Source: a bacterium (GTDB taxonomy: Bacteria > Bacillota_I > Bacilli_A > RF39 > UBA660). Taken from it: a stretch of 64,000 nucleotides of DNA. The notes under the pieces are model-generated. The model searched no databases. It had not been told where the DNA came from and saw only the letters and a list, made by a program, of their open reading frames with translations. The DNA lies in NCBI GenBank assembly GCA_029100545.1, contig JAQXPH010000021.1, forward strand, positions 10,613 to 74,612, given 5' to 3'. Position 1 is the first letter of the stretch. Each line of letters begins with the position of its first letter. Positions 36,259 through 50,398 of this stretch are shown piece by piece. The translations under genes and the position numbers were made by a program.

Positions 36259-37878
36259 TTAATAAGTTAATGACTTAAATTTTTTTACGCCATATTTACA
36301 AATTACAAAATATAATATTATTATAGTTAATATAAAAACAATAATTTGTATAAAAATAACTATATAAGCAATTTTATAAAATTTTATCATAATAAGCACA
36401 GAAATAAGTCCTAAACCCATTCCCAAAAATACTGCAATCATTGAACTTAAACTTTGTTTAATTACTTCTACTTCATTTATCCACTTTAATTTTGGATATT
36501 TTAAATTAATTAAAATACCTATCATTGCACTAAGTGTTGGCACAATCAATGTTAAAAGTATAATTAAAAATATATCTAATAACTTCACTTTTAAAAAAAA
36601 TATAAATATTAAATCATTAATAAGCATAAGTGGTATTACCAAAATCACACTAAATAATACTTTTGAAAATATAATATTTTTTTCACTTATTGGTAAACTT
36701 TTTATAATATTTATTTTCTTTCCTTCTAATGATATACTTGATGAAGTAATAGTTGTCATAAAACTCATAAAAATAACCAATTCAAAATATATTACAGGAG
36801 CATATTTAGTTATTGTTGCAAGAGAAATTTGTTCTTGCATATCACTATTAATTAAATTAACAAAATTTTGAGAATTAAAGCAAAAATATAGTGTCATAAT
36901 AAGCATTAATACAATTCCAAATAATGTATTAATTATATATACTGGTGATGAAAAATAATATTTAAATTCTTTTTTTATCAATGAAGTAATTTTATTATTT
37001 ACTTTTATACTACTTTGATTATATTTTTTTGCTTTTTTATTAGTTTTAGTAATTGTTGATTTAGATATAATCTTATAATAATTTATTGTTCCCAAATAAA
37101 CAAAAATAATTAACGGAATTATATTAAATAAAATTAACTTTATAAAAACTAATATGTCAAATTTATTTATTAAAGATATATAAGCATTTATTGGATAATA
37201 TAATTTTGAAATTATTTTATTAATTATTGGAGCTTTAGTAACTATATTATTAACATTATTTTGTATTGAAAAAGTAAAATAATAAATTGCAATAAAAAAA
37301 ATTATAGAAAGAATTGTTTGAACTCTTTTTTTATTTTTAAAATTAACAGATAAGCCTTTAACTATATAGCCAATTATTGAAGCAATAATTATAGGTATAA
37401 TTGGAATTAGTATCATCATTATTAATGATATAAAATAAAAATTTATATTTGGATGTTCAAAATATGAATAAACAACCACAGCAGGTAGAAATATTAATAA
37501 AACATAAACATATTGAAATATTAAAAATTTAAGTAATCTTGTTAAAAAAATCTTTTCTTTTTTTATAGGTAATGAAAAAAGTAAATCATTGTCTTTACAT
37601 TCAAATAAAACTCCTTGTACTTTAAAAAAACCTTGTAAAATTATAAAAGCAGATATTAACATTATAAATAAACTTAAACAAATATATGTTAAGTTAACAT
37701 CATGAAGTGGTTTTGCAAACATATAGGCATATACACCAACTGAATACATTAAAAGTGCAAATAATATTAAAGGAAATAATATTTTTTTAATTTTTGATTT
37801 ATTATCATTTGATTTAATTTTTAAAATATTTAATCCATCTTTTAACAAAACTTTTAATAAAGATAATGTTTGTTTCAT
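36259..37878 (-). CDS. ABC-transporter permease-like polytopic membrane protein
   Basis: About 12 TM, overlapping the stop of the upstream ATPase gene (37875-37878). Confidence 0.6.
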   Translation of the reverse strand: MKQTLSLLKVLLKDGLNILKIKSNDNKSKIKKILFPLILFALLMYSVGVYAYMFAKPLHDVNLTYICLSLFIMLISAFIILQGFFKVQGVLFECKDNDLLFSLPIKKEKIFLTRLLKFLIFQYVYVLLIFLPAVVVYSYFEHPNINFYFISLIMMILIPIIPIIIASIIGYIVKGLSVNFKNKKRVQTILSIIFFIAIYYFTFSIQNNVNNIVTKAPIINKIISKLYYPINAYISLINKFDILVFIKLILFNIIPLIIFVYLGTINYYKIISKSTITKTNKKAKKYNQSSIKVNNKITSLIKKEFKYYFSSPVYIINTLFGIVLMLIMTLYFCFNSQNFVNLINSDMQEQISLATITKYAPVIYFELVIFMSFMTTITSSSISLEGKKINIIKSLPISEKNIIFSKVLFSVILVIPLMLINDLIFIFFLKVKLLDIFLIILLTLIVPTLSAMIGILINLKYPKLKWINEVEVIKQSLSSMIAVFLGMGLGLISVLIMIKFYKIAYIVIFIQIIVFILTIIILYFVICKYGVKKFKSLTY

Positions 37879-38585
37879 TTTTCATCCTCTAGTTCTAAAA
37901 ATACTTCTTCTAAAGATTCATCACCTTTAATATCTTTCATTGATCCAACTTTAACAATTTTTCCATTTTTTATAATTGCAACTTTATCACAAAGTTTTTC
38001 AGCTACATCTAATATATGAGTTGAATAAAAAATAGTTTTATTTTCTTTTATCATATCTTTCATTATTTTTTTCATATCAAAGACCGCTTTTGGATCAAGA
38101 CCAACAAATGGTTCATCCATAATTAATATTTCTGGATCATGAGAAAGTGCCGAAATTAATGCTACCTTTTGTTTCATACCATGTGAAAAACTTGATATTT
38201 CATCTTGTAAATTATCTTCAAGTTCTAGCATTTTTGAATATTTTTGAATATTTTTTTCTCGCACTTCTAATGGTGTTTCATACATATCGCAAACAAAGTT
38301 GATAAAATCAATTGCCTTCATATTTTCATAAAGATCTGGATTATCTGGAATATAAGCCATTATTTTTTTACATTCAATAGGATTGCTTTTAATAGATTTT
38401 CCATTTATTAAAATATCTCCTTCATCAAATTCAATTATTCCCATCATTGATTTTATCATTGTTGTTTTTCCTGCTCCATTGTGACCTATAAAAGCAAAAA
38501 TTTCTCCATTTTCAATATTAAAGTTAACATTATCTAATGCTTTTTTTGTGCCATATTTTTTACTAACATTTTTAATTTCTATCAT
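37875..38585 (-). CDS. ABC transporter ATP-binding protein (ABC-2 type)
   Basis: GHNGAGKTT, SHGMKQKVALISAL, ILIMDEP. Confidence 0.9.
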   Translation of the reverse strand: MIEIKNVSKKYGTKKALDNVNFNIENGEIFAFIGHNGAGKTTMIKSMMGIIEFDEGDILINGKSIKSNPIECKKIMAYIPDNPDLYENMKAIDFINFVCDMYETPLEVREKNIQKYSKMLELEDNLQDEISSFSHGMKQKVALISALSHDPEILIMDEPFVGLDPKAVFDMKKIMKDMIKENKTIFYSTHILDVAEKLCDKVAIIKNGKIVKVGSMKDIKGDESLEEVFLELEDEK

Positions 38586-38640
38586 ATATAAACCTTTCTT
38601 CGTATATCATATCATATTTTATGAAAAAAGATAGATTATT

Positions 38641-39078
38641 TTAACTTAATCTACCTTTTACAATTTTACTAACTAAAGACATATCTGCATTAGTTATTTT
38701 TGAAGAAATAATTTTCATTAAATTTCCCATATCTTTCATTGAAGTTGGTTTAACTTCTTCGAATACTAAATCAATTATTTTATTTATTTCCTCTTCGCTC
38801 ATTTCTTGTGGTAAGTATTTATTTAATACTTCGACTTCATGTTCTAGTTCTTTTACAGTCTCAAGTTTATTATATTTTTTATATTCTTCAATAGAATCTT
38901 TTCTAGTTTTAACTTGTTTTTTTATAACTTTTAAAACTTCTTCATCAGTAAGTTCATGGAAAGCGCCTTTTCTACTTTCAACAATAAATTCACTTTTTAA
39001 CATTCTTAAGACAGATAAGGTAAATTTATCACCACTTTTTAAAGCGTTTTTTAAATCTAAGTCAATTCGTTCTAACAT
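38641..39078 (-). CDS. GatB/YqeY domain protein
   Basis: DLKNALKSGDKFTLSVLRMLKSE... pattern. The rpsU-yqeY pairing is typical of Firmicutes. Confidence 0.85.
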   Translation of the reverse strand: MLERIDLDLKNALKSGDKFTLSVLRMLKSEFIVESRKGAFHELTDEEVLKVIKKQVKTRKDSIEEYKKYNKLETVKELEHEVEVLNKYLPQEMSEEEINKIIDLVFEEVKPTSMKDMGNLMKIISSKITNADMSLVSKIVKGRLS

Positions 39079-39087
39079 AATTACTCC

Positions 39088-39276
39088 TTAATTATGATTT
39101 CTACGGCGTGAATTTTTAATATTTTCTTTCTTTTCATTTCTTCTTTTAACGCCTGGTTTTTCATAGCATTTTCTCTTCTTAAGTTCTGAAGGGACGCCAC
39201 TACGAGCAAATTTTGCTTTAAACTTTTTTAAAGCAAGATCAACATTACCATTTTGAACTACAACCTTTGTCATCAT
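39088..39276 (-). CDS. rpsU: 30S ribosomal protein S21
   Basis: MMTKVVVQNGNVDLALKKFKAKFARSGV...KRRNEKK. The start is set after AAGGGAGGG. Confidence 0.9.
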   Translation of the reverse strand: MMTKVVVQNGNVDLALKKFKAKFARSGVPSELKKRKCYEKPGVKRRNEKKENIKNSRRRNHN

Positions 39277-39302
39277 TATCCCTCCCTTCATTAACTAGCA
39301 TT

Positions 39303-39331
39303 ATTATAACACCTACCACATATTTTGACAA
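39303..39331 (-). promoter_or_regulatory. sigma-A type promoter of rpsU
   Basis: The minus strand reads TTGTCA-17 nt-TATAAT, beginning 5 nt after the stop of bacteriocin peptide B. Confidence 0.55.
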
Positions 39332-39336
39332 GATTT

Positions 39337-39492
39337 TTAGCAACTTGTATGGCTAAATAATCGACGCAATGTTGAGCCTAAATTTTGTCCATAACTATAT
39401 ATGGCAATGATTAATTTTCCTGCAGCAGCAAGCCAACTAGCGCTTACCGCTCCACCAACATATAAAATGCTTTCATCACTATTTAACACCAT
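39337..39492 (-). CDS. double-glycine-leader bacteriocin precursor B (51 aa)
   Basis: MVLNSDESILYVGG / AVSASWLAAAGKLIIAIYSYGQNLGSTLRRLFSHTSC. The track shows it as part of a 65-aa TTG ORF. The ATG at 39492 gives a 14-aa GG leader paralogous to that of peptide A. Confidence 0.7.
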   Translation of the reverse strand: MVLNSDESILYVGGAVSASWLAAAGKLIIAIYSYGQNLGSTLRRLFSHTSC

Positions 39493-39493
39493 T

Positions 39494-39640
39494 TTATCTA
39501 ATATTGCAAGCCTTTGGATTAGAAAAACCATCAATAATTCCTAAAAAAAACGTACTTATTACTGAAATAATAAAAATACCGCTTGCAGTAAATTTAACTC
39601 CTCCAGTATATTTTATCATTTCATCATCTTTTAAAAGCAT
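39494..39640 (-). CDS. double-glycine-leader bacteriocin precursor A (48 aa), not in the ORF track
   Basis: AGGAGGtagcATG. MLLKDDEMIKYTGG / VKFTASGIFIISVISTFFLGIIDGFSNPKACNIR. Hand-translated from the minus strand. Confidence 0.7.
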   Translation of the reverse strand: MLLKDDEMIKYTGGVKFTASGIFIISVISTFFLGIIDGFSNPKACNIR

Positions 39641-39652
39641 GCTACCTCCTTT

Positions 39653-40060
39653 CTAAAATATAATTTTTAATATTTTTTTAATTATTTTTGCTTTATTATA
39701 ATAAAATGTTATTTGAACAACTTCATTTTCTTTTAAATTTATATTTGTTTTTAAAGTATATACTTGATAATTTTGATAATTATCATTTAATAAATTTGAT
39801 ATATTATCAATCTTATAACTATATTCACTATTATTTATCTCCATTTTATTATTTAAAATTAATTTGTCAGAGTTTTCTACTAAAATGTTAACTTTAATAA
39901 AACCATTTTCATAAATACCATAAGTATTAAAATTACTATACGATTCTAAAAAAAATGAAAGGATAATAAAAATAATAAATATGACTAAAAATATAATTAA
40001 AAACAAATTATTTTTATATTTAATATTTTGTAAATAATAATATCTACTTTTCATGTTCAC
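39653..40060 (-). CDS. small single-TM protein, candidate bacteriocin accessory or immunity protein
   Basis: 135 aa, TM LFLIIFLVIFIIFIILSFFL, beta-rich C-terminal part. It overlaps the ABC gene stop by 17 nt. Confidence 0.5.
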   Translation of the reverse strand: MNMKSRYYYLQNIKYKNNLFLIIFLVIFIIFIILSFFLESYSNFNTYGIYENGFIKVNILVENSDKLILNNKMEINNSEYSYKIDNISNLLNDNYQNYQVYTLKTNINLKENEVVQITFYYNKAKIIKKILKIIF

Positions 40061-42101
40061 CCTTTAAAGTAATAACTCGATCAAACAAATTATCTTGCTT
40101 TTTATGTGATACATAAATAATAGTTTTTTCTGGATATTCTCTAATGATGTTTTTTATTATTGTTTTTTCCATAAAATAATCCGTTTCACTAAGTGCCTCA
40201 TCTAAAATTAATATTTTACTATTTCTTAGTAAAGCCCTTGCTAAAATAATTCTTTGTTTTTCACCTCCTGATATATTAATCGAATCATTACTTATTCCAA
40301 AATCATATCTTAATTTTCTTTTATTAACAATTAAATCAATTAAACAAATTTTACAAACTTTATTAAAATTACTTTCATCTTCATAATTAAATAAAATATT
40401 ATTTTTTATTGTATCAGTATATAAATTTTCTTTTTGGCCAACATAAATAATATTATCTTTTATTGTATTAAGACTATAATCATTAATATTTATACCATTT
40501 ATATATATACAACCATTATTTAAAGAAAAATCTCTAGTAAGAAGCTTACATAAACTGCTTTTACCACTACCACTTTTTCCTTTAATCATTATTTTTTCAT
40601 TAGCTTTAACTACTTCACTAAAATCTTTTATAATATAATTATAGTTATCATAAGAAAAACTTATATTTTCTATAATAATATCGCCATTAATTAGTTCTTT
40701 ACTTTCACCAATTTTTTCCTCTTTTATATTTATAAAATCACATATTTTATTAAAACTTGCTCGTAAAAAATTATATTTTGGTATTAGTGATACTATATTT
40801 TTAATGGGGCTCATAAAATAAGATAAAAATGTATTGTAAATAACCAAACTAATTAAAGAGAACTTATTATTATAAATTAAATAAAATCCATAAGTATTAA
40901 TTATAAAAAATGATAGTTCATAAAAAATATTTTTAAGTGTTTCAAAAAAATTTATACTTATATTAAAAGAATAATTATCAAAAATCAAATTGCAAATTTT
41001 ATTTTCAATTTTATTTAAAATATTTTCAGTTTCATTTAAATTTTTTATACTATTTATCATATCAATATTTTCTAATAAAATAGTATTAACCTCAGTTTGA
41101 TATTCAATATTTTGTCTAATTCTTTTATATAGATATGGACTAATTAAAATAGAAATTATTATATAAATTAATACAAATATAATTAATATAAAAGTTATTT
41201 TAATATTTATATTTAAAAGAACTATAAAGGAAGCAAGGCAAATCATTAAGTCTAAAAATGCAAAAATAAATATTTGTGAAAATAATTCTTTAATACTACT
41301 AATTTCATTTACTCGCGACATTATTTCACCACTGCTTCTTGATTCAATAACATTTAAAGGAAGATGAAATAAATGATTAATAAACTCCTTAAAAACACTA
41401 ACATCAATATTTTTATTAATATGATTTTCATAATATTTTTTTAAATAATCAAAAATAATTTTAAAGACTATACAAAGTAAAAATATAAATATTAATATTT
41501 TAATTGTATTTTGAAATGCATTGTTTGAAATAAATTCATTCATTACTTTAAAATACATTCCAGATATTATAGTAATAATTGTTAATAAAAAACTACATAA
41601 TAATGCATTAATACATAATTTTTTGTTTTTTATTAAAATTTTTATAAAAAGATTATAAATACTATTTTCTTTTTCTAATAAAATAATTTTATCTTTAGGA
41701 GTAAATTGCAAAACAACGCCAGCAAATATTTTATTAAACTCTTCTTTAGTCATTTTAATCTTGCCTTTACTAGGATCCATTAAAATGTAATTTGATCCTT
41801 TAATTTCATATAAGCACATAAAATGTGTAAGACCATTATCATATTTAACATGTACAATCGCAGGCAAAATAATATTATTTAAATTTTTATCTTCAATTTT
41901 TTTAGCTATAGCATCAAATCCATACTTTTCCGCGGCTTTAAGTAAATGATAGACACTAACCCCCTGCATTGATGTATAAGTATCAAGTCTAATCTTTTCT
42001 ATTGGGACATAACCATTATAAAATTTTATAATAGATTGAAGACAACAAGCACCACAATCTTTTACATCTCTTTGACAAACTATTACCATCTTATTTTTCA
42101 T
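40044..42101 (-). CDS. peptidase-C39 bacteriocin ABC exporter (SunT/LagD/ComA type)
   Basis: C39 residues QRDVKDCGACCLQSI, HFMCLYEI, MDPSKG. Six TM. NBD GKSGSGKSS, ISGGEKQRIILARALL, ILILDEA. Confidence 0.9.
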   Translation of the reverse strand: MKNKMVIVCQRDVKDCGACCLQSIIKFYNGYVPIEKIRLDTYTSMQGVSVYHLLKAAEKYGFDAIAKKIEDKNLNNIILPAIVHVKYDNGLTHFMCLYEIKGSNYILMDPSKGKIKMTKEEFNKIFAGVVLQFTPKDKIILLEKENSIYNLFIKILIKNKKLCINALLCSFLLTIITIISGMYFKVMNEFISNNAFQNTIKILIFIFLLCIVFKIIFDYLKKYYENHINKNIDVSVFKEFINHLFHLPLNVIESRSSGEIMSRVNEISSIKELFSQIFIFAFLDLMICLASFIVLLNINIKITFILIIFVLIYIIISILISPYLYKRIRQNIEYQTEVNTILLENIDMINSIKNLNETENILNKIENKICNLIFDNYSFNISINFFETLKNIFYELSFFIINTYGFYLIYNNKFSLISLVIYNTFLSYFMSPIKNIVSLIPKYNFLRASFNKICDFINIKEEKIGESKELINGDIIIENISFSYDNYNYIIKDFSEVVKANEKIMIKGKSGSGKSSLCKLLTRDFSLNNGCIYINGININDYSLNTIKDNIIYVGQKENLYTDTIKNNILFNYEDESNFNKVCKICLIDLIVNKRKLRYDFGISNDSINISGGEKQRIILARALLRNSKILILDEALSETDYFMEKTIIKNIIREYPEKTIIYVSHKKQDNLFDRVITLKGEHEK

Positions 42102-42295
42102 CTATTTATCCTCCTTTCACCCTACTTATACTCAACAAAAATTATTTTTCCTTTTTATTTTTTTATTTAAAATTATTTTTCTTTAAATTTAACATTTTTT
42201 TACTAAAATAAATAATAAAATTTTACAATTATTAACAGTTATATTTTTTTAACTTAGACAATATAATTTACTATGTATAAGGAGGAAAGAAAGCA

Positions 42296-42790
42296 TTGAT
42301 TAATAAACAAAATTTATGGTTTATAACTTTATTTGCACTTATTTTAATTTTAGGAATTTATTATATTACATTACCTGATAGTGCAATCCCTACTTTTTCA
42401 GCTGATGAAACAAACTTGCAAAGTACAATTGAAGTTAAAGATTCTGACATAATTATTGCTCTTAAAGTTGAAGAAGAAGAAAAAATCTTAAAAGAAATGG
42501 AAGATGCTCAAAAAATATTACTAGATAATGCTGCTACTACAGAAGAAAAAAATGCTGCATATGAAACATTACAACAACTAAACTATAAAAAAGGTAAAAT
42601 TGACGAAATAGAAAAATTAATTAAAGAAAAATTCAATATTAATTCATGTGTTAAAATCGAAGGTAACAAAATAAATATTACGCTATCTTGTGAAGATAAG
42701 GGTGCAGAATTTGCAAATAACATTATTAAAGAAGTTCAATCACTTTATAATAACCAAATGTATATAACAATTAAATTTCAAAGTAAATAG
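42296..42790 (+). CDS. spoIIIAH: stage III sporulation protein AH
   Basis: MINKQNLWFITLFALILILGIYYIT and the C-terminal EEKNAAYETLQQL...IEGNKINITL align by eye with B. subtilis SpoIIIAH (KKQTVWLLTM..., AEGDKINITV). Confidence 0.75.
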   Translation: MINKQNLWFITLFALILILGIYYITLPDSAIPTFSADETNLQSTIEVKDSDIIIALKVEEEEKILKEMEDAQKILLDNAATTEEKNAAYETLQQLNYKKGKIDEIEKLIKEKFNINSCVKIEGNKINITLSCEDKGAEFANNIIKEVQSLYNNQMYITIKFQSK

Positions 42791-42855
42791 GCTTATATAT
42801 TACCTTTTTTTTGCTTTTTTCATAATATATTATGAAGCATAAGAAAGGAAGGCCT

Positions 42856-43065
42856 ATGAAAAAAATGTTATTAACCAAAAGAGAACAAGAAATTTTTGAA
42901 CTTTTAGTTCTTAACAAATCAACTAAAGAAATAGCTGAACAACTTAATATTAGTCAAAAAACTGTCCGAAATCATATATCTAATACAATGCAAAAATTAG
43001 GTGTTAAAGGCCGATGTAATGCGATAATAGAATTATTAAAACTTGGAGCAATTTCATTAGATTAA
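42856..43065 (+). CDS. gerE: GerE-like LuxR-family HTH regulator (single domain)
   Basis: LTKREQEIFELLVLNKSTKEIAEQLNISQKTVRNHISNTMQKLGV. The start is set after AAGAAAGGAAGG. Confidence 0.75.
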   Translation: MKKMLLTKREQEIFELLVLNKSTKEIAEQLNISQKTVRNHISNTMQKLGVKGRCNAIIELLKLGAISLD

Positions 43066-44077: not shown

Positions 44078-44395
44078 ATGCCCGTTATATCATTTAAAAA
44101 GAAACTTAAAGGCTATGATGTAAGTATAGCTTTTAATACTTGTTATAATAATGAATGTAAATTAAAAATTAAAAATACCGATGTTTATTTTACTGAAGAA
44201 GAAAATCAAATTAATGAAGTAATAAAAAATTTTGATGAAAAAACTTATCAAGAATATTTAGATAAATATAATATAGTTTTTGTTGCCTTAGCAAAATACT
44301 TTATAGATAAAATACCAAATATTTTTTCCATAAAATTTGAAGATAAAAATCAAAAATTCATATTATATGCAGATGAAATCGAAAATTTTAATTAA
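44078..44395 (+). CDS. hypothetical protein (105 aa)
   Basis: ORF track. RBS GGAGATG. No family recognised. Confidence 0.5.
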   Translation: MPVISFKKKLKGYDVSIAFNTCYNNECKLKIKNTDVYFTEEENQINEVIKNFDEKTYQEYLDKYNIVFVALAKYFIDKIPNIFSIKFEDKNQKFILYADEIENFN

Positions 44396-44411
44396 AAAAG
44401 ACTATTTTTCC

Positions 44412-44440
44412 TTGTAAATAAAAAAAAATTGATATATAAT
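44412..44440 (+). promoter_or_regulatory. sigma-A type promoter of tRNA-Arg
   Basis: TTGTAA-17 nt-TATAAT, 11 nt upstream of the tRNA. Confidence 0.55.
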
Positions 44441-44451
44441 GTAATTGTGAT

Positions 44452-44528
<77 letters not shown>

Positions 44529-44542
44529 TAATTAAGTTTTTT

Positions 44543-49235: not shown

Positions 49236-49548
49236 TGTTGAAAGAGGCATTATAAAGTGGTCTCCTTTTAATTCAGTAGTATCTGGTAATGAAATGTTAA
49301 ATAGCATTGTAAAAGAAAAAAATAAAATAGCAATGCCTACTTTATCTGATGAGCAAAAAGAAGTTATAGAAAAAAAATTAATTTTAGCACTTTACAGTCA
49401 AAATATAGTTAATATTTATTATTTTCAAAACGGGAAAATTTTAAATATTAAATCAAATATAAAAAAAATAGACTCTACTTACCATAAAATCTATTTTCAA
49501 AATAAAGTTATCTTATTTGAACAAATAATTGAGATTAACCAACTATAA
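49228..49548 (+). CDS. YolD-like protein
   Basis: IKWSPFNSV motif, and it sits directly after a UmuC-like gene. The start is set at the ATG after TGGAGG. Confidence 0.7.
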   Translation: MHNVERGIIKWSPFNSVVSGNEMLNSIVKEKNKIAMPTLSDEQKEVIEKKLILALYSQNIVNIYYFQNGKILNIKSNIKKIDSTYHKIYFQNKVILFEQIIEINQL

Positions 49549-50398
49549 AAAATCTTGTAAATAAGAAAAATAAAATTAATGCAGTAACAAGTAACACAGC
49601 CACAGTACAAATTATTTTAACATTTTTACTAACTTTTGGTTTTTCGTCTTTGGAATTTCCAGCTTTCTCACCTTCTATAATTGGAGCTGATTCCATAACT
49701 GGTTCAGTTTGATTAATAATTGGTGTCTCAGTTGGAGTTTGCACTGGCTCAGCAGGCGTTTCAACTACAGGAGTTTGTACTGGTTCAGCAGGTGTTTCAA
49801 CAACTGGAGTTTGTACTGGCTCAGCAGGCATTTCAACAACAGGAGTTTGTACTGGTTCAACAGGCGCTTCAACAACTGGAGTTTGCACTGGTTCAGCAGG
49901 CGCTTCAACAACTGGAGTTTGCACTGGTTCAGCAGGAGTTTCAACTACAGGAGTTTGTACTGGCTCAGCAGGAGTTTCAACAACTGGAGTTTGCACTGGT
50001 TCAGCAGGAGTTTCAACTACAGGAGTTTGTACTGGCTCAGCAGGAGTTTCAACAACTGGAGCTTGTACTGGCTCAGCAGGCATTTCAACAACAGGAGTTT
50101 GCACTGGTTCAACAGGCGTTTCAACAACTGGAGTTTGTACTGGCTCAGCAGGCGTTTCAACAACAGGAGTTTGTACTGGCTCAACAGGTGCTTCAACAAC
50201 TGGAGTTTGCATTGGCTCAGCAGGTGCTTCAACTACAGGAGTTTCTACTTGTGCTATTGGCTCTTCAATAGTTTGATTAGCTTCAGGCATTTGAGGCATC
50301 TCAATTACTGGAGTTTGCACTTCATTATTATTTTCAACTTGCTCTTCTGAATTTTCAATTTTTGGTAACTCAATTTTTAAATCATTATTTTCTTCCAT
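49535..50398 (-). CDS. tail-anchored repeat protein, (TPVVE[TAM]P[AV]EPVQ) x14
   Basis: ORF track. No signal peptide. C-terminal TM IICTVAVLLVTALILFFLF. RBS AGAGGT and a TATAAT lie upstream. Confidence 0.75.
   Translation of the reverse strand: MEENNDLKIELPKIENSEEQVENNNEVQTPVIEMPQMPEANQTIEEPIAQVETPVVEAPAEPMQTPVVEAPVEPVQTPVVETPAEPVQTPVVETPVEPVQTPVVEMPAEPVQAPVVETPAEPVQTPVVETPAEPVQTPVVETPAEPVQTPVVETPAEPVQTPVVEAPAEPVQTPVVEAPVEPVQTPVVEMPAEPVQTPVVETPAEPVQTPVVETPAEPVQTPTETPIINQTEPVMESAPIIEGEKAGNSKDEKPKVSKNVKIICTVAVLLVTALILFFLFTRFFIVG
49733..50236. repeat. 14 head-to-tail copies of a 36-bp unit (in-frame coding tandem repeat)
   Basis: The + strand unit is approximately GGAGTTTGYACTGGYTCAGCAGGNGTTTCAACWACA, counted directly in the sequence. 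A partial 15th copy follows. Confidence 0.9.

What the first reader, a model, noticed from the sequence alone, without database searches (positions are those of the whole stretch)
39337..42101. Compact two-peptide double-glycine bacteriocin locus, one precursor missing from the ORF track, abutting rpsU
A 685-aa ABC exporter with a complete C39 peptidase triad context (DCGACCLQSI / HFMCLYEI / MDPSKG) is followed on the minus strand by two tandem small ORFs. Peptide A (39640->39494, 48 aa, preceded by AGGAGG, not in the track) reads MLLKDDEMIKYTGG|VKFTASGIFIISVISTFFLGIIDGFSNPKACNIR. Peptide B (39492->39337, 51 aa) reads MVLNSDESILYVGG|AVSASWLAAAGKLIIAIYSYGQNLGSTLRRLFSHTSC. The two 14-aa leaders are paralogous (M-[LV]-L-x-x-D-E-x-I-x-Y-x-G-G) and fit the GG-leader rule (Glu at -8, hydrophobic residues at -4 and -12). 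Each mature part is hydrophobic and cationic. Each has a GxxxG motif (GIIDG; GQNLG), as in class IIb two-peptide bacteriocins. Each also has a single Cys near its C-terminus, which raises the possibility of an intermolecular disulfide. The stop of A is 1 nt from the ATG of B. I recognise neither peptide as a known family. No immunity gene, no LytTR/histidine-kinase regulator and no terminator is visible, and the rpsU promoter starts 5 nt after the stop of B.
Basis: partly seen in the sequence, partly recalled or inferred. Interest (0 to 1): 0.75.

Follow-up and report, generated by a model that had tools for sequence, protein, structure and literature searches.

The report
Conserved two-peptide export cassette beside rpsU
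A small operon in an uncultured, very AT-rich gut Bacillus-class bacterium exports two partner peptides that look like a two-peptide bacteriocin, and they belong to a large, unnamed family that has stayed in one chromosomal spot next to a ribosomal gene across many lineages.

Summary
On the minus strand lie a C39-peptidase ABC exporter (42101-40044), peptide A (39640-39494) and peptide B (39492-39337).

Both peptide genes are intact and under purifying selection in all relatives examined. They are not orphans. An exhaustive profile search found 187 B-like clusters with no Pfam or NCBIfam model. In about 50 loci, A always directly precedes B, behind the same exporter type.

The GxxxG glycines are near-invariant in both peptides. 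A C-terminal Cys is kept in 96% of B-like peptides, usually as the only Cys. In one genome with two pairs, both partners of the second pair have lost their Cys tails.

Eighteen related loci carry a third gene after B: a leaderless membrane protein that mimics B, a candidate immunity factor. The window has none.

The cassette co-diverges with the genome and sits upstream of rpsU or yabP in 24 of the 48 loci whose downstream gene could be read.

Best reading: a class IIb-like two-peptide bacteriocin, possibly disulfide-linked. Its core-genome behaviour and missing immunity gene keep a self-directed or physiological role open.

The parts
40044..42101 (-). Peptidase-containing ABC exporter (PCAT), 685 aa. 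Domains: C39 peptidase (Gln10, Cys16, His93, Asp109), six-helix ABC membrane domain, and ATPase (Walker A 508-515, signature 611, Walker B 630-636, His666).
   Evidence: Pfam finds PF03412, PF00664 and PF00005. It aligns end to end with PCAT1 (4ry2, E 4e-84) and ComA (8hf7, E 3e-83), with the catalytic residues aligned. TIGR01193 scores 374 bits, below its cutoff of 523.85. NF045998 (Mbov_0121 family) scores 335 bits, below its cutoff of 500.
39653..40054 (-). Small accessory protein, 133 aa (135 aa from the GTG at 40060). It has a basic N-terminus, one transmembrane helix and a strand-rich domain of about 95 aa predicted to be extracellular. Its start overlaps the exporter's stop.
   Evidence: ORF list and public gene calls. 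It is conserved in 30 of the 41 related loci whose exporter-to-A interval could be read. Five of 11 orthologues hit NCBIfam NF045999 (MAG1140 family), best E 1.7e-4; the window copy scores E 0.05 over the full model length. There is no Pfam or PDB match. Single-sequence AF2 gives a confident helix at 2-38 and low-confidence strands after it.
39494..39640 (-). Peptide A precursor, 48 aa. Leader MLLKDDEMIKYTGG (39640-39599). Predicted mature peptide of 34 aa: VKFTASGIFIISVISTFFLGIIDGFSNPKACNIR. It is transmembrane-like, with net charge +2, a GxxxG motif (GIIDG) and a single Cys.
   Evidence: The RBS AGGAGG lies at 39650-39645. The family pattern F-x-x-G-x-x-D-G-x-x-x-P-x-x-C holds over 42 unique mature sequences. 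dN/dS is 0.12-0.19 for close pairs.
39337..39492 (-). Peptide B precursor, 51 aa. Leader MVLNSDESILYVGG (39492-39451). Predicted mature peptide of 37 aa: AVSASWLAAAGKLIIAIYSYGQNLGSTLRRLFSHTSC. It is an amphipathic helix with net charge +3, a GxxxG motif (GQNLG) and a C-terminal Cys.
   Evidence: An exhaustive profile search found 187 clusters. AF2 with 102 homologues gives pLDDT 76.5, a leader helix at 5-12 and a continuous helix at 15-47. dN/dS is 0.22-0.26.
42123..42155 (-). Conserved block upstream of the exporter: AAAAGGAAA, about 16 nt, then G-TATAAG-TA, followed by the RBS AGGAGG at 42115-42110. This is a possible promoter or regulatory site for the operon. The sigma factor or regulator is not identified.
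   Evidence: Alignment of eight orthologous intergenic regions. The consensus scan found no sigma-70-type site on this strand here. The functional assignment is inference only.
39303..39331 (-). rpsU promoter (TTGTCA, 17 nt, TGnTATAAT). It starts 5 nt after the stop of B and marks the downstream boundary of the cassette.
   Evidence: It scores 11 of 12 matches with an extended -10. The block TCTTGTCAAA...GTGTTATAAT is invariant in 10 orthologous loci and always lies within about 12 nt of the stop of B.
39088..39276 (-). rpsU (ribosomal protein S21), followed by yqeY (39078-38641). These are the conserved downstream neighbours of the cassette.
   Evidence: Pfam PF01165, TIGR00030 and PF09424. 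rpsU lies directly downstream of B in 19 of the 48 loci whose downstream gene could be read (52 tabulated).

Best explanation
The locus is a four-gene operon: exporter, accessory, A, B. It makes and exports a two-peptide, class IIb-like, membrane-active agent.

Proposed steps:
1. The precursors of A and B are translated from adjacent, probably translationally coupled genes (1-nt spacer).
2. The C39 domain of the ABC exporter binds the 14-aa double-glycine leaders and cleaves after GG.
3. The transporter expels mature A (34 aa, transmembrane-like) and mature B (37 aa, one long amphipathic helix). The small membrane-anchored accessory protein is its likely partner.
4. Outside the cell the two helices pair 1:1 through their near-invariant GxxxG faces. 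Their single C-terminal cysteines probably form an interchain disulfide.
5. The heterodimer inserts into a target membrane, probably through a receptor, and causes leakage.

Shown by the data: the genes, their conservation and purifying selection, the intact catalytic and leader motifs, the obligatory A-B pairing behind this exporter type, and the conserved Gly and Cys positions.

Inferred: cleavage and export, heterodimer formation, the disulfide, and killing.

In sister lineages a third gene encodes a leaderless, membrane-tethered mimic of B, which is the likely immunity factor. The window's clade lacks it, so how the producer protects itself is unknown.
For: - Exporter: C39, ABC_membrane and ABC_tran domains, with Gln10, Cys16, His93 and Asp109 aligned to PCAT1 and ComA.
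- Leaders: both fit the GG-leader pattern. The family-wide leader logo is MKLxxxELxxIxGG. Distant members weakly hit bacteriocin leader models: lactococcin G alpha and beta, lactobin A/cerein 7B, TIGR01847 and PF10439.
- Pairing: A directly precedes B in every locus with enough flank except rearranged L058. The exporter was found upstream in 38 of the 40 loci with enough flank, of 52 tabulated.
- Selection: dN/dS is 0.12-0.26.
- GxxxG glycines: invariant in A. In B they are present in 99% of 102 sequences.
- Cysteine: 136 of 142 B-like representatives keep a Cys in the last 12 residues, and 121 of them have exactly one Cys.
- Natural experiment: in Ca. Onthocola stercorigallinarum the second A/B pair has lost the Cys-bearing tails of both partners.
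- Peptide properties: both are cationic (+2, +3). A is hydrophobic and B is amphipathic.
- Third gene: found in 18 loci. Its HMM also detects B peptides, so it is a B paralogue with a membrane anchor in place of the leader. This matches the toxin-plus-immunity logic of class IIb operons and of cibABC (PMC2850506; PMC5295010).
- Locus dynamics typical of bacteriocin loci: an extra GG peptide in L004, and a leader-swap deletion chimera P0009.
Against: - No activity, processing or export data exist for any member.
- There is no immunity gene in the operon or anywhere in the 64-kb window. The review of class IIb says the immunity gene is always in the peptide operon.
- No quorum-sensing regulator is nearby.
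- The cassette is vertically inherited and syntenic next to rpsU, yqeY and yabP across lineages whose exporters are only 32-67% identical. The Spearman correlation between exporter and YqeY divergence is 0.83. Bacteriocin loci are usually variable accessory DNA.
- The window peptides match no curated bacteriocin family.
- The disulfide idea rests on conservation plus a single natural experiment. In that experiment A2 still carries another Cys inside its GxxxG motif.
Confidence: 0.6

Rival explanations
1. The exported A/B pair is a conserved, self-directed or physiological factor and not a weapon against competitors. Examples would be kin-directed lysis (fratricide or cannibalism linked to sporulation or DNA release, as with pneumococcal CibAB), or a small exported membrane-protein pair needed by the producer's own envelope. 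Export and cleavage would work as in the main explanation. Only the target differs.
For: - The cassette is present in every genome of the clade examined, at the same position, and co-diverges with flanking core genes.
- rpsU or yabP lies directly downstream in 24 of the 48 loci whose downstream gene could be read, including nine rpsU cases outside the window clade (L032, L035, L043, L046, L047, L054, L059, L067, L071). Exporters aligned over more than 500 residues in those lineages are only 32-45% identical to the window's.
- No immunity gene is present in the window clade, and four loci lack both the accessory and the third gene.
- Neighbours are sporulation genes: spoIIIAH-like, gerE, gerM, and yabP-yqfD in relatives.
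- No hits to plasmids or phages.
- CibABC is a precedent for a core two-peptide bacteriocin used on siblings.
Against: - The sporulation neighbours may reflect only ancestral gene order.
- About half the loci (24 of the 48 readable) sit in other contexts, such as obg or sepF/divIVA, so position is not obligatory.
- The third-gene mimic in 18 loci looks like classic immunity.
- Duplicated pairs, extra peptides and leader-swap chimeras resemble bacteriocin-locus dynamics.
- There is no expression or phenotype evidence.
Confidence: 0.27
2. A and/or B are secreted signalling peptides (pheromones of the ComC/BlpC type). They would be processed by the exporter and sensed by a receptor encoded elsewhere.
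For: The same exporter class processes peptide pheromones, and ComA is among the best structural matches. A few distant family members weakly hit ComC or induction-factor models through their leaders.
Against: - No histidine kinase, response regulator or Rgg-type receptor lies in the operon or beside it in any of about 50 loci.
- The mature peptides are 34-37 aa, transmembrane-like or amphipathic helices with invariant GxxxG motifs. Pheromones are typically short and unstructured.
- An obligatory two-gene pairing is not a pheromone feature.
Confidence: 0.05
3. The two small ORFs are chance or decayed reading frames downstream of a transporter and make no functional product.
For: They are short, A+T-rich and lack database annotation beyond 'hypothetical protein'.
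Against: - The frames are intact in all relatives examined, and dN/dS is 0.12-0.26.
- There are 187 B-like clusters in an exhaustive search.
- 39 of 43 hits to a degenerate DNA pattern are true leader-bearing B genes with an A gene upstream.
- A has a strong RBS.
Confidence: 0.01

Closest known systems
Class IIb (unmodified two-peptide) bacteriocins, e.g. lactococcin G, plantaricin EF/JK, enterocin 1071 (review PMC2850506)
   Same: - Two different precursor genes are adjacent in one operon.
- Both carry double-glycine leaders cut by a dedicated C39-ABC exporter.
- An accessory gene sits next to the exporter.
- The mature peptides are cationic and helical, 30-40 aa long.
- Both peptides have a GxxxG motif.
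   Different: - There is no sequence membership in any curated IIb family.
- The leader is 14 aa, at or below the usual 15-30.
- The accessory is 133 aa and unrelated to the roughly 450-aa LcnD/LagE type by any test run here.
- There is no immunity gene in the operon.
- Each peptide has one conserved C-terminal Cys. Known IIb pairs are non-covalent (own knowledge).
- The locus is core and syntenic, not variable.
- Activity is untested.
cibABC of Streptococcus pneumoniae (two-peptide fratricide bacteriocin plus small immunity protein; PMC5295010)
   Same: Both are conserved chromosomal two-peptide GG-leader bacteriocin operons. In relatives of the window a small membrane protein is encoded immediately after the second peptide (the 'C' gene of L028, L029, L035 and others). 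CibABC is also a precedent for a species-wide locus aimed at siblings.
   Different: No sequence comparison with CibA, CibB or CibC was possible here. The window clade lacks the third gene. cibABC relies on the ComAB exporter encoded elsewhere and on ComX control, whereas this cassette carries its own exporter and no known regulator.
PCAT1 (Clostridium thermocellum, PDB 4ry2) and ComA (PDB 8hf7) peptidase-containing ABC transporters
   Same: The architecture is the same over the full length, with the same catalytic Cys/His/Asp plus Gln and the same ATPase motifs (E 4e-84 and 3e-83).
   Different: The PCAT1 alignment printed shows limited identity (percentage not computed). The window protein scores below the NCBIfam cutoffs for TIGR01193 and TIGR03796. 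Its substrates are a peptide pair, not one 90-aa cargo (PCAT1) or a pheromone (ComA).
Mycoplasma Mbov_0121-family PCAT (NF045998) with MAG1140-family small protein (NF045999)
   Same: The window exporter scores nearly as well against this model (335 bits) as against the generic bacteriocin exporter model. The small accessory aligns over the whole 126-residue MAG1140 model, and 5 of 11 orthologues hit it (best E 1.7e-4). This suggests a shared module of exporter plus mini-accessory in low-GC Bacilli and Mollicutes.
   Different: Both scores are far below the curated cutoffs (500 and 35 bits). I could not inspect the mycoplasma loci, so I do not know whether they carry A/B-like peptides. No function is published for them in the library searched.

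Membership tests
Class IIb two-peptide bacteriocin (definition from PMC2850506) | [quoted passage not shown] | tested here: met
   A (39640-39494) and B (39492-39337) are 1 nt apart on the same strand. The pairing is conserved in every related locus with enough flank.
Class IIb two-peptide bacteriocin | A double-glycine leader of 15-30 residues on both preforms | tested here: met
   Both leaders end in GG, with Glu at -8 and hydrophobic residues at -4 and -12. The family logo is MKLxxxELxxIxGG. At 14 residues the leader is one short of the stated range.
Class IIb two-peptide bacteriocin | A dedicated ABC transporter with a leader peptidase, in or near the operon | tested here: met
   The exporter has C39, ABC_membrane and ABC_tran domains and is the first gene of the operon. 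Its catalytic residues are intact.
Class IIb two-peptide bacteriocin | An accessory protein encoded with the transporter | tested here: inconclusive
   A 133-aa single-pass membrane protein overlaps the exporter's stop. It has no Pfam or PDB similarity. Its only link is a weak one to the MAG1140 family. It is absent or truncated in 11 of the 41 loci whose exporter-to-A interval could be read.
Class IIb two-peptide bacteriocin | An immunity gene in the same operon as the peptide genes | tested here: not met
   The rpsU promoter begins 5 nt after B. An HMM of the third-gene family found in relatives hits nothing in the 64-kb window except B itself.
Class IIb two-peptide bacteriocin | A GxxxG (or AxxxA/SxxxS) motif in both peptides | tested here: met
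   A has GIIDG and B has GQNLG. These glycines are invariant in the close clade. They are present in 99% of 102 B-like sequences and in all 42 A-like sequences.
Class IIb two-peptide bacteriocin | [quoted passage not shown] | not testable with these tools
   This needs purified or synthetic peptides and indicator strains.
Curated class II bacteriocin sequence families (NF038034/NF038035 lactococcin G beta/alpha, TIGR03949 lactobin A/cerein 7B, PF10439 Bacteriocin_IIc) | A score above the family cutoff for the peptide | tested here: not met
   The window's A and B have no hit at E<=1 in Pfam or NCBIfam. Among 102 relatives only weak hits appear (best E 1e-5 to 1e-3), which I attribute, without inspecting the alignments, to the leader.
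TIGR01193 peptide cleavage/export ABC transporter (bacteriocin_ABC) | A whole-protein score above the curated cutoff | tested here: not met
   The score is 374.1 bits against a cutoff of 523.85, although the alignment covers 10-679 of the protein. The domain architecture is that of the family, but it is a divergent branch.
Mbov_0121 PCAT / MAG1140 small-protein module (NF045998 / NF045999) | Scores above the curated cutoffs for both proteins | tested here: not met
   The scores are 335 bits against a cutoff of 500, and 13.8 bits against a cutoff of 35. Five of 11 accessory orthologues hit at E<=1, best 1.7e-4. The relationship is distant and does not amount to membership.
New A/B(/C) cassette family defined here | Gene order exporter - (accessory) - A (F-x-x-G-x-x-D-G-x-x-x-P-x-x-C) - B (Y-x-x-G-Q-x-x-G-S-x-x-R-R-x6-C) | tested here: met
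   The window's A and B carry both signatures. The B profile retrieves 187 clusters. 39 of 43 DNA-pattern hits show the same gene order.

The most novel reading that the evidence does not exclude
The A/B pair would be the first covalently linked (interchain disulfide) heterodimeric class II peptide. In sister lineages immunity would come from a membrane-tethered mimic of the B chain. In the window's clade the cassette has persisted as a vertically inherited core locus beside rpsU with no immunity gene at all. That would imply its main role is self-directed or physiological, such as sibling lysis, sporulation-linked killing or an envelope function, and not competition.
Probability: 0.25. Interest if true: 0.8.

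Novelty: new variant of a known kind. Interest (0 to 1): 0.6.

Why it matters
If correct, the finding matters in four ways.
- It defines a large, uncurated family of two-peptide export cassettes in uncultured, very low-GC gut Bacilli. At least 187 B-like clusters have no Pfam or NCBIfam model and no literature.
- Its features go beyond textbook class IIb systems: one conserved cysteine per chain, which suggests a disulfide-linked heterodimer; a miniature accessory protein shared distantly with mycoplasmas; and, in relatives, a candidate immunity protein that is a membrane-anchored copy of one toxin chain.
- Its deep, syntenic, vertical conservation next to rpsU raises the testable question of whether some 'bacteriocins' are really core developmental or kin-directed factors.
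- It gives concrete peptides, with predicted masses, for synthesis and testing against gut Firmicutes.

Tried and rejected
The single-sequence AF2 model was poor (pLDDT 59), so no fold search was run on it.
- Fold search of the B model: not run, because a single long helix gives meaningless matches.
- Accessory profile against PDB sequences and Pfam: nothing significant.
- Single-sequence homologue search with A: found only itself. Alignments were needed to reach relatives.
I replaced it with a hand-built degenerate DNA pattern.
- Literature search for the signature motifs (SNPKAC, GQNFGS, GQNLGS, DGFSNPK): no paper. The IIBacFinder paper has no supplements held. 'Mbov_0121' appears only in two proteome or genome lists.
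- tblastn of A and B against plasmids, and of B against phages: no match, so there is no sign of a mobile-element origin.
- Search of the whole window for a third-gene or immunity homologue and for further GG-leader peptides: only B itself and two obvious chance hits.
- Promoter of the operon: no sigma-70-type site on the minus strand upstream of the exporter. I compared the conserved AAAAGGAAA...GTATAAGTA block by eye with sigma-H, F, G, E and K consensus sequences recalled from memory. None fitted, so no regulator is claimed.
- My first statement that the B-family Cys is 100% invariant was biased by my hand selection of sequences. The unbiased count is 136 of 142.
- The conserved N-terminal 'extension' of B in public gene calls (MVFLIQRLAILDK...) is rejected as real. 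It is the alternate-frame reading of the conserved C-terminus of A.


Full report
**1. What is in the window**

On the minus strand, searches show four consecutive genes.
- A 685-aa ORF at 42101-40044.
- A 133-aa ORF at 40054-39653 (135 aa from a GTG at 40060). It overlaps the stop of the first gene.
- Peptide A at 39640-39494 (48 aa), behind AGGAGG at 39650-39645.
- Peptide B at 39492-39337 (51 aa). Its ATG lies 1 nt after the stop of A.

Five nucleotides after the stop of B begins a near-consensus promoter, TTGTCA-17-TGnTATAAT (39331-39303). It scores 11 of 12 matches. It serves rpsU (39276-39088) and yqeY. No terminator-like structure was found anywhere in 38500-42900.

Divergently upstream lie a spoIIIAH-like gene, gerE and a gerM-like gene. 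The window is 23.5% G+C.

**2. The exporter**

Pfam finds Peptidase_C39, ABC_membrane and ABC_tran. The protein aligns over its whole length with the solved transporters PCAT1 (4ry2, E 4e-84) and ComA (8hf7, E 3e-83).

The catalytic cysteine (Cys16 in DCGACC), His93, Asp109 and the oxyanion Gln10 are all aligned. The ATPase motifs are intact: Walker A 508-515, signature at 611, Walker B 630-636 and His666.

It is a divergent branch. It scores 374 bits against TIGR01193 (cutoff 523.85). It scores almost as well, 335 bits, against the mycoplasma Mbov_0121 family (cutoff 500).

**3. The accessory protein**

The 133-aa protein has a basic N-terminus, one confidently predicted transmembrane helix (residues 2-38) and a strand-rich C-terminal part of low model confidence. 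It has no Pfam or PDB relative.

Five of its 11 orthologues hit NCBIfam NF045999, the MAG1140 family, with a best E-value of 1.7e-4. The window copy aligns over the full model at E 0.05. The start-stop overlap with the exporter suggests translational coupling.

My inference is that it is a miniature counterpart of the accessory proteins that accompany bacteriocin exporters. It is not universal: it is absent or truncated in 11 of the 41 related loci whose exporter-to-A interval could be read.

**4. The peptides are real genes under selection**

The exact exporter occurs on two public contigs, with A called at 48 aa.

A genome scan found five related 'Bacilli bacterium' MAGs, with exporters 93-64% identical. 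Protein searches and context look-ups added more. Every one has the order exporter - accessory - A - B - rpsU - yqeY. The exception is the L015 lineage, which lacks the accessory.

Reading frames are intact in 14 distinct genomes. For close pairs dN/dS is 0.12-0.19 for A and 0.22-0.26 for B.

The rpsU promoter block is invariant. It always starts within about 12 nt of the stop of B.

**5. The peptides belong to a large, unnamed family**

An exhaustive HMMER search of 1.84 billion representatives with a B profile returned 187 clusters at E<=1e-3. Nearly all are 50-57 aa and align end to end.

The family logo is:
- leader: MKLxxxELxxIxGG;
- mature peptide: A-x-[IL]-[ST]-[AG]-x-[LF]-[IL]-N-A ... 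[YF]-x-[IL]-G-[QR]-x-[LV]-G-S-x-[IL]-R-R-x6-C.

Neither the window peptides nor 102 relatives match any curated model, apart from weak hits that I attribute, without inspecting the alignments, to the leader, to lactococcin G alpha and beta, lactobin A/cerein 7B, TIGR01847 and PF10439. No paper in the library contains the signature motifs.

A degenerate DNA pattern for the B core, scanned against metagenome contigs, gave 43 hits. Thirty-nine are true leader-bearing B genes on contigs of 20-28% G+C.

**6. The cassette**

I tabulated 52 loci.
- The exporter was found upstream in 38 of the 40 loci with enough flank.
- An A-like gene always directly precedes B, except in rearranged L058.
- The accessory is present in 30.

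Across 42 unique mature A sequences the pattern is F-x-x-G-x-x-D-G-x-x-x-P-x-x-C. A and B are therefore an obligatory pair served by a dedicated exporter. This is the anatomy of class IIb two-peptide bacteriocins as defined in PMC2850506.

**7. Glycines and cysteines**

AF2 with 102 homologues models mature B as one continuous helix at 15-47 (pLDDT 76.5). A is transmembrane-like: its best 19-residue Kyte-Doolittle mean is 2.14. B is amphipathic. Net charges are +2 for A and +3 for B.

An unbiased count over 142 short representatives shows a Cys in the last 12 residues of 136. In 121 it is the only Cys in the mature peptide. My earlier figure of 100% was biased by my selection of sequences. Thirty-nine of 42 A sequences also have exactly one Cys. 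That set was selected with a pattern that requires the Cys, so the count shows only that extra cysteines are rare.

Candidatus Onthocola stercorigallinarum carries two pairs before rpsU. In the second pair, A2 ends just after its GxxxG and B2 ends at ...KRLFG. Both partners have lost the Cys-bearing tails together.

This is a single case, and A2 retains a different Cys inside its GxxxG motif. I treat the interchain disulfide as a well-motivated inference, not a result.

**8. A third gene in relatives, absent from the window**

In 18 loci a 40-61-aa ORF overlaps or closely follows the stop of B. It has no leader. It has a basic N-terminus, one transmembrane helix with a conserved LP, and a C-terminal [LI]-[FY]-x-[LI]-G-x-x-x-G-[TS]-x-x-R segment that mirrors the core of B.

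An HMM of this family finds all copies at E<=1e-12. Its next-best hits are the B peptides themselves. So it is a B paralogue in which a membrane anchor replaces the export leader.

By the positive-inside rule, its B-like part would face outward. I propose that it acts as an immunity protein by mimicry, either sequestering A or competing for the target. This is inference.

The HMM finds no such gene anywhere in the 64-kb window. Four loci lack both the accessory and the third gene.

**9. Inheritance and position**

Relative to the window, exporter identity falls in step with flanking core proteins. The Spearman correlation between exporter and YqeY identity is 0.83 (n=11, p=0.002).

Of the 48 loci whose downstream gene could be read, rpsU follows in 19 and yabP in 5. 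Nine of the rpsU cases lie outside the window's clade. In those nine, RpsU is only 57-97% identical to the window's, and exporters aligned over more than 500 residues are 32-45% identical. The other 24 loci sit elsewhere, for example beside obg or sepF/divIVA.

A and B have no match in the plasmid collection, and B none in the phage collection.

The cassette therefore behaves as old, mostly vertically inherited chromosomal DNA, not as a mobile bacteriocin island. Even so, the locus shows bacteriocin-like tinkering:
- an extra, unrelated GG peptide in L004;
- a chimera with that peptide's leader fused to mature B and A deleted (P0009);
- a duplicated pair in Onthocola.

**10. Interpretation**

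The best-supported mechanism is leader cleavage and export of two complementary helical peptides. They would act together on membranes as a class IIb-like bacteriocin, possibly disulfide-linked (confidence 0.6).

The main rival keeps the same biochemistry but changes the target to kin-directed or physiological use. It is supported by the core-genome behaviour and the missing immunity gene, and pneumococcal CibABC is a precedent (PMC5295010) (confidence 0.27).

Pheromone signalling is unlikely (0.05). No sensor is nearby in about 50 loci, and the mature peptides are long hydrophobic or amphipathic helices.

Chance ORFs are excluded by conservation.

**11. Novelty and score**

This is not a member of any curated bacteriocin family, and one defining class IIb feature (the operon-encoded immunity gene) is not met. 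It works like a class IIb system, but with new peptide families, a miniature accessory, a conserved Cys pair, a B-mimic third gene in relatives and unusually deep synteny.

I rate it a new variant of a known kind, with interest 0.6. It stays well above ordinary because of the size of the unrecognised family and the concrete hypotheses it opens for testing.

Noticed in passing
L028:7113-7292; L029:5781-5942; also L033, L035-38, L040, L043, L044, L046, L052, L053, L055, L063, L065, L066, L069: A third small gene lies right after B in 18 related loci. It has no leader and consists of a transmembrane helix plus a B-like G-x-x-x-G-[ST]-x-x-R segment. It is a candidate immunity protein acting by mimicry and is absent from the window.
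   Followed up: yes
L074:5553-6141 (Candidatus Onthocola stercorigallinarum; also L075-L077): There are two tandem A/B pairs before rpsU. In the second pair both A2 and B2 lack the C-terminal Cys-bearing tails. This correlated loss fits a functional Cys-Cys link.
   Followed up: partly
L004:7456-7587 and protein P0009: L004 carries an extra 43-aa GG-leader peptide (mature AFYFYLSIVSWFRTLRIKITSRRNYVRF, no Cys), unrelated to A or B, ahead of its A/B pair. P0009, from a 742-nt contig, has that peptide's leader fused to mature B, which implies deletion of A by recombination between leaders.
   Followed up: partly
window 39493-39534 (and proteins P0002, P0003, P0005, P0006, P0008): Public gene calls start B at an upstream TTG, giving 64-65 aa with a 'conserved' N-terminal MVFLIQRLAILDK. 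This is the alternate-frame reading of the conserved C-terminus of A. In other lineages the same effect yields MLDQLNV from YVRPVKCR. It is an annotation artefact that inflates apparent conservation.
   Followed up: yes
window 36259-38585 (-): An ABC ATPase (236 aa) and a 539-aa PF16949 membrane protein follow yqeY here and in L003 and L005-7. In more distant relatives (L012, L014, L018, L025) yqeY is followed directly by yabP-yqfD. This lineage-specific insertion could be tested as a stand-in immunity transporter.
   Followed up: partly
protein P0125 (506-nt ENA contig): A single 102-aa ORF contains an A-like precursor, a short QEEKN linker and a B-like precursor in frame. It is either a natural A-B fusion or a lost stop codon.
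   Followed up: no
L015:698-812; L032:373-387; L033, L044, L053, L063, L066, L069: In several lineages the exporter is followed directly by A with no accessory gene. L051 keeps only a 52-aa N-terminal remnant. The accessory is therefore dispensable or replaceable.
   Followed up: partly
window 42123-42155 (-): A conserved AAAAGGAAA...GTATAAGTA block lies upstream of the exporter in eight orthologous loci. No sigma-70-type -35 element is present, so the regulator or sigma factor is unknown.
   Followed up: partly
window 49535-50398: Long ORFs overlap on both strands, and the plus-frame translation shows a repeated GVSTTGVCTGSAG-like motif. This is probably a repeat-containing gene.
   Followed up: no
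window 44392-44529 (-) vs tRNA 44452-44525 (+): A 45-aa ORF with a GG-like motif is simply the antisense of a tRNA gene. It was a chance hit in the GG-leader scan.
   Followed up: yes
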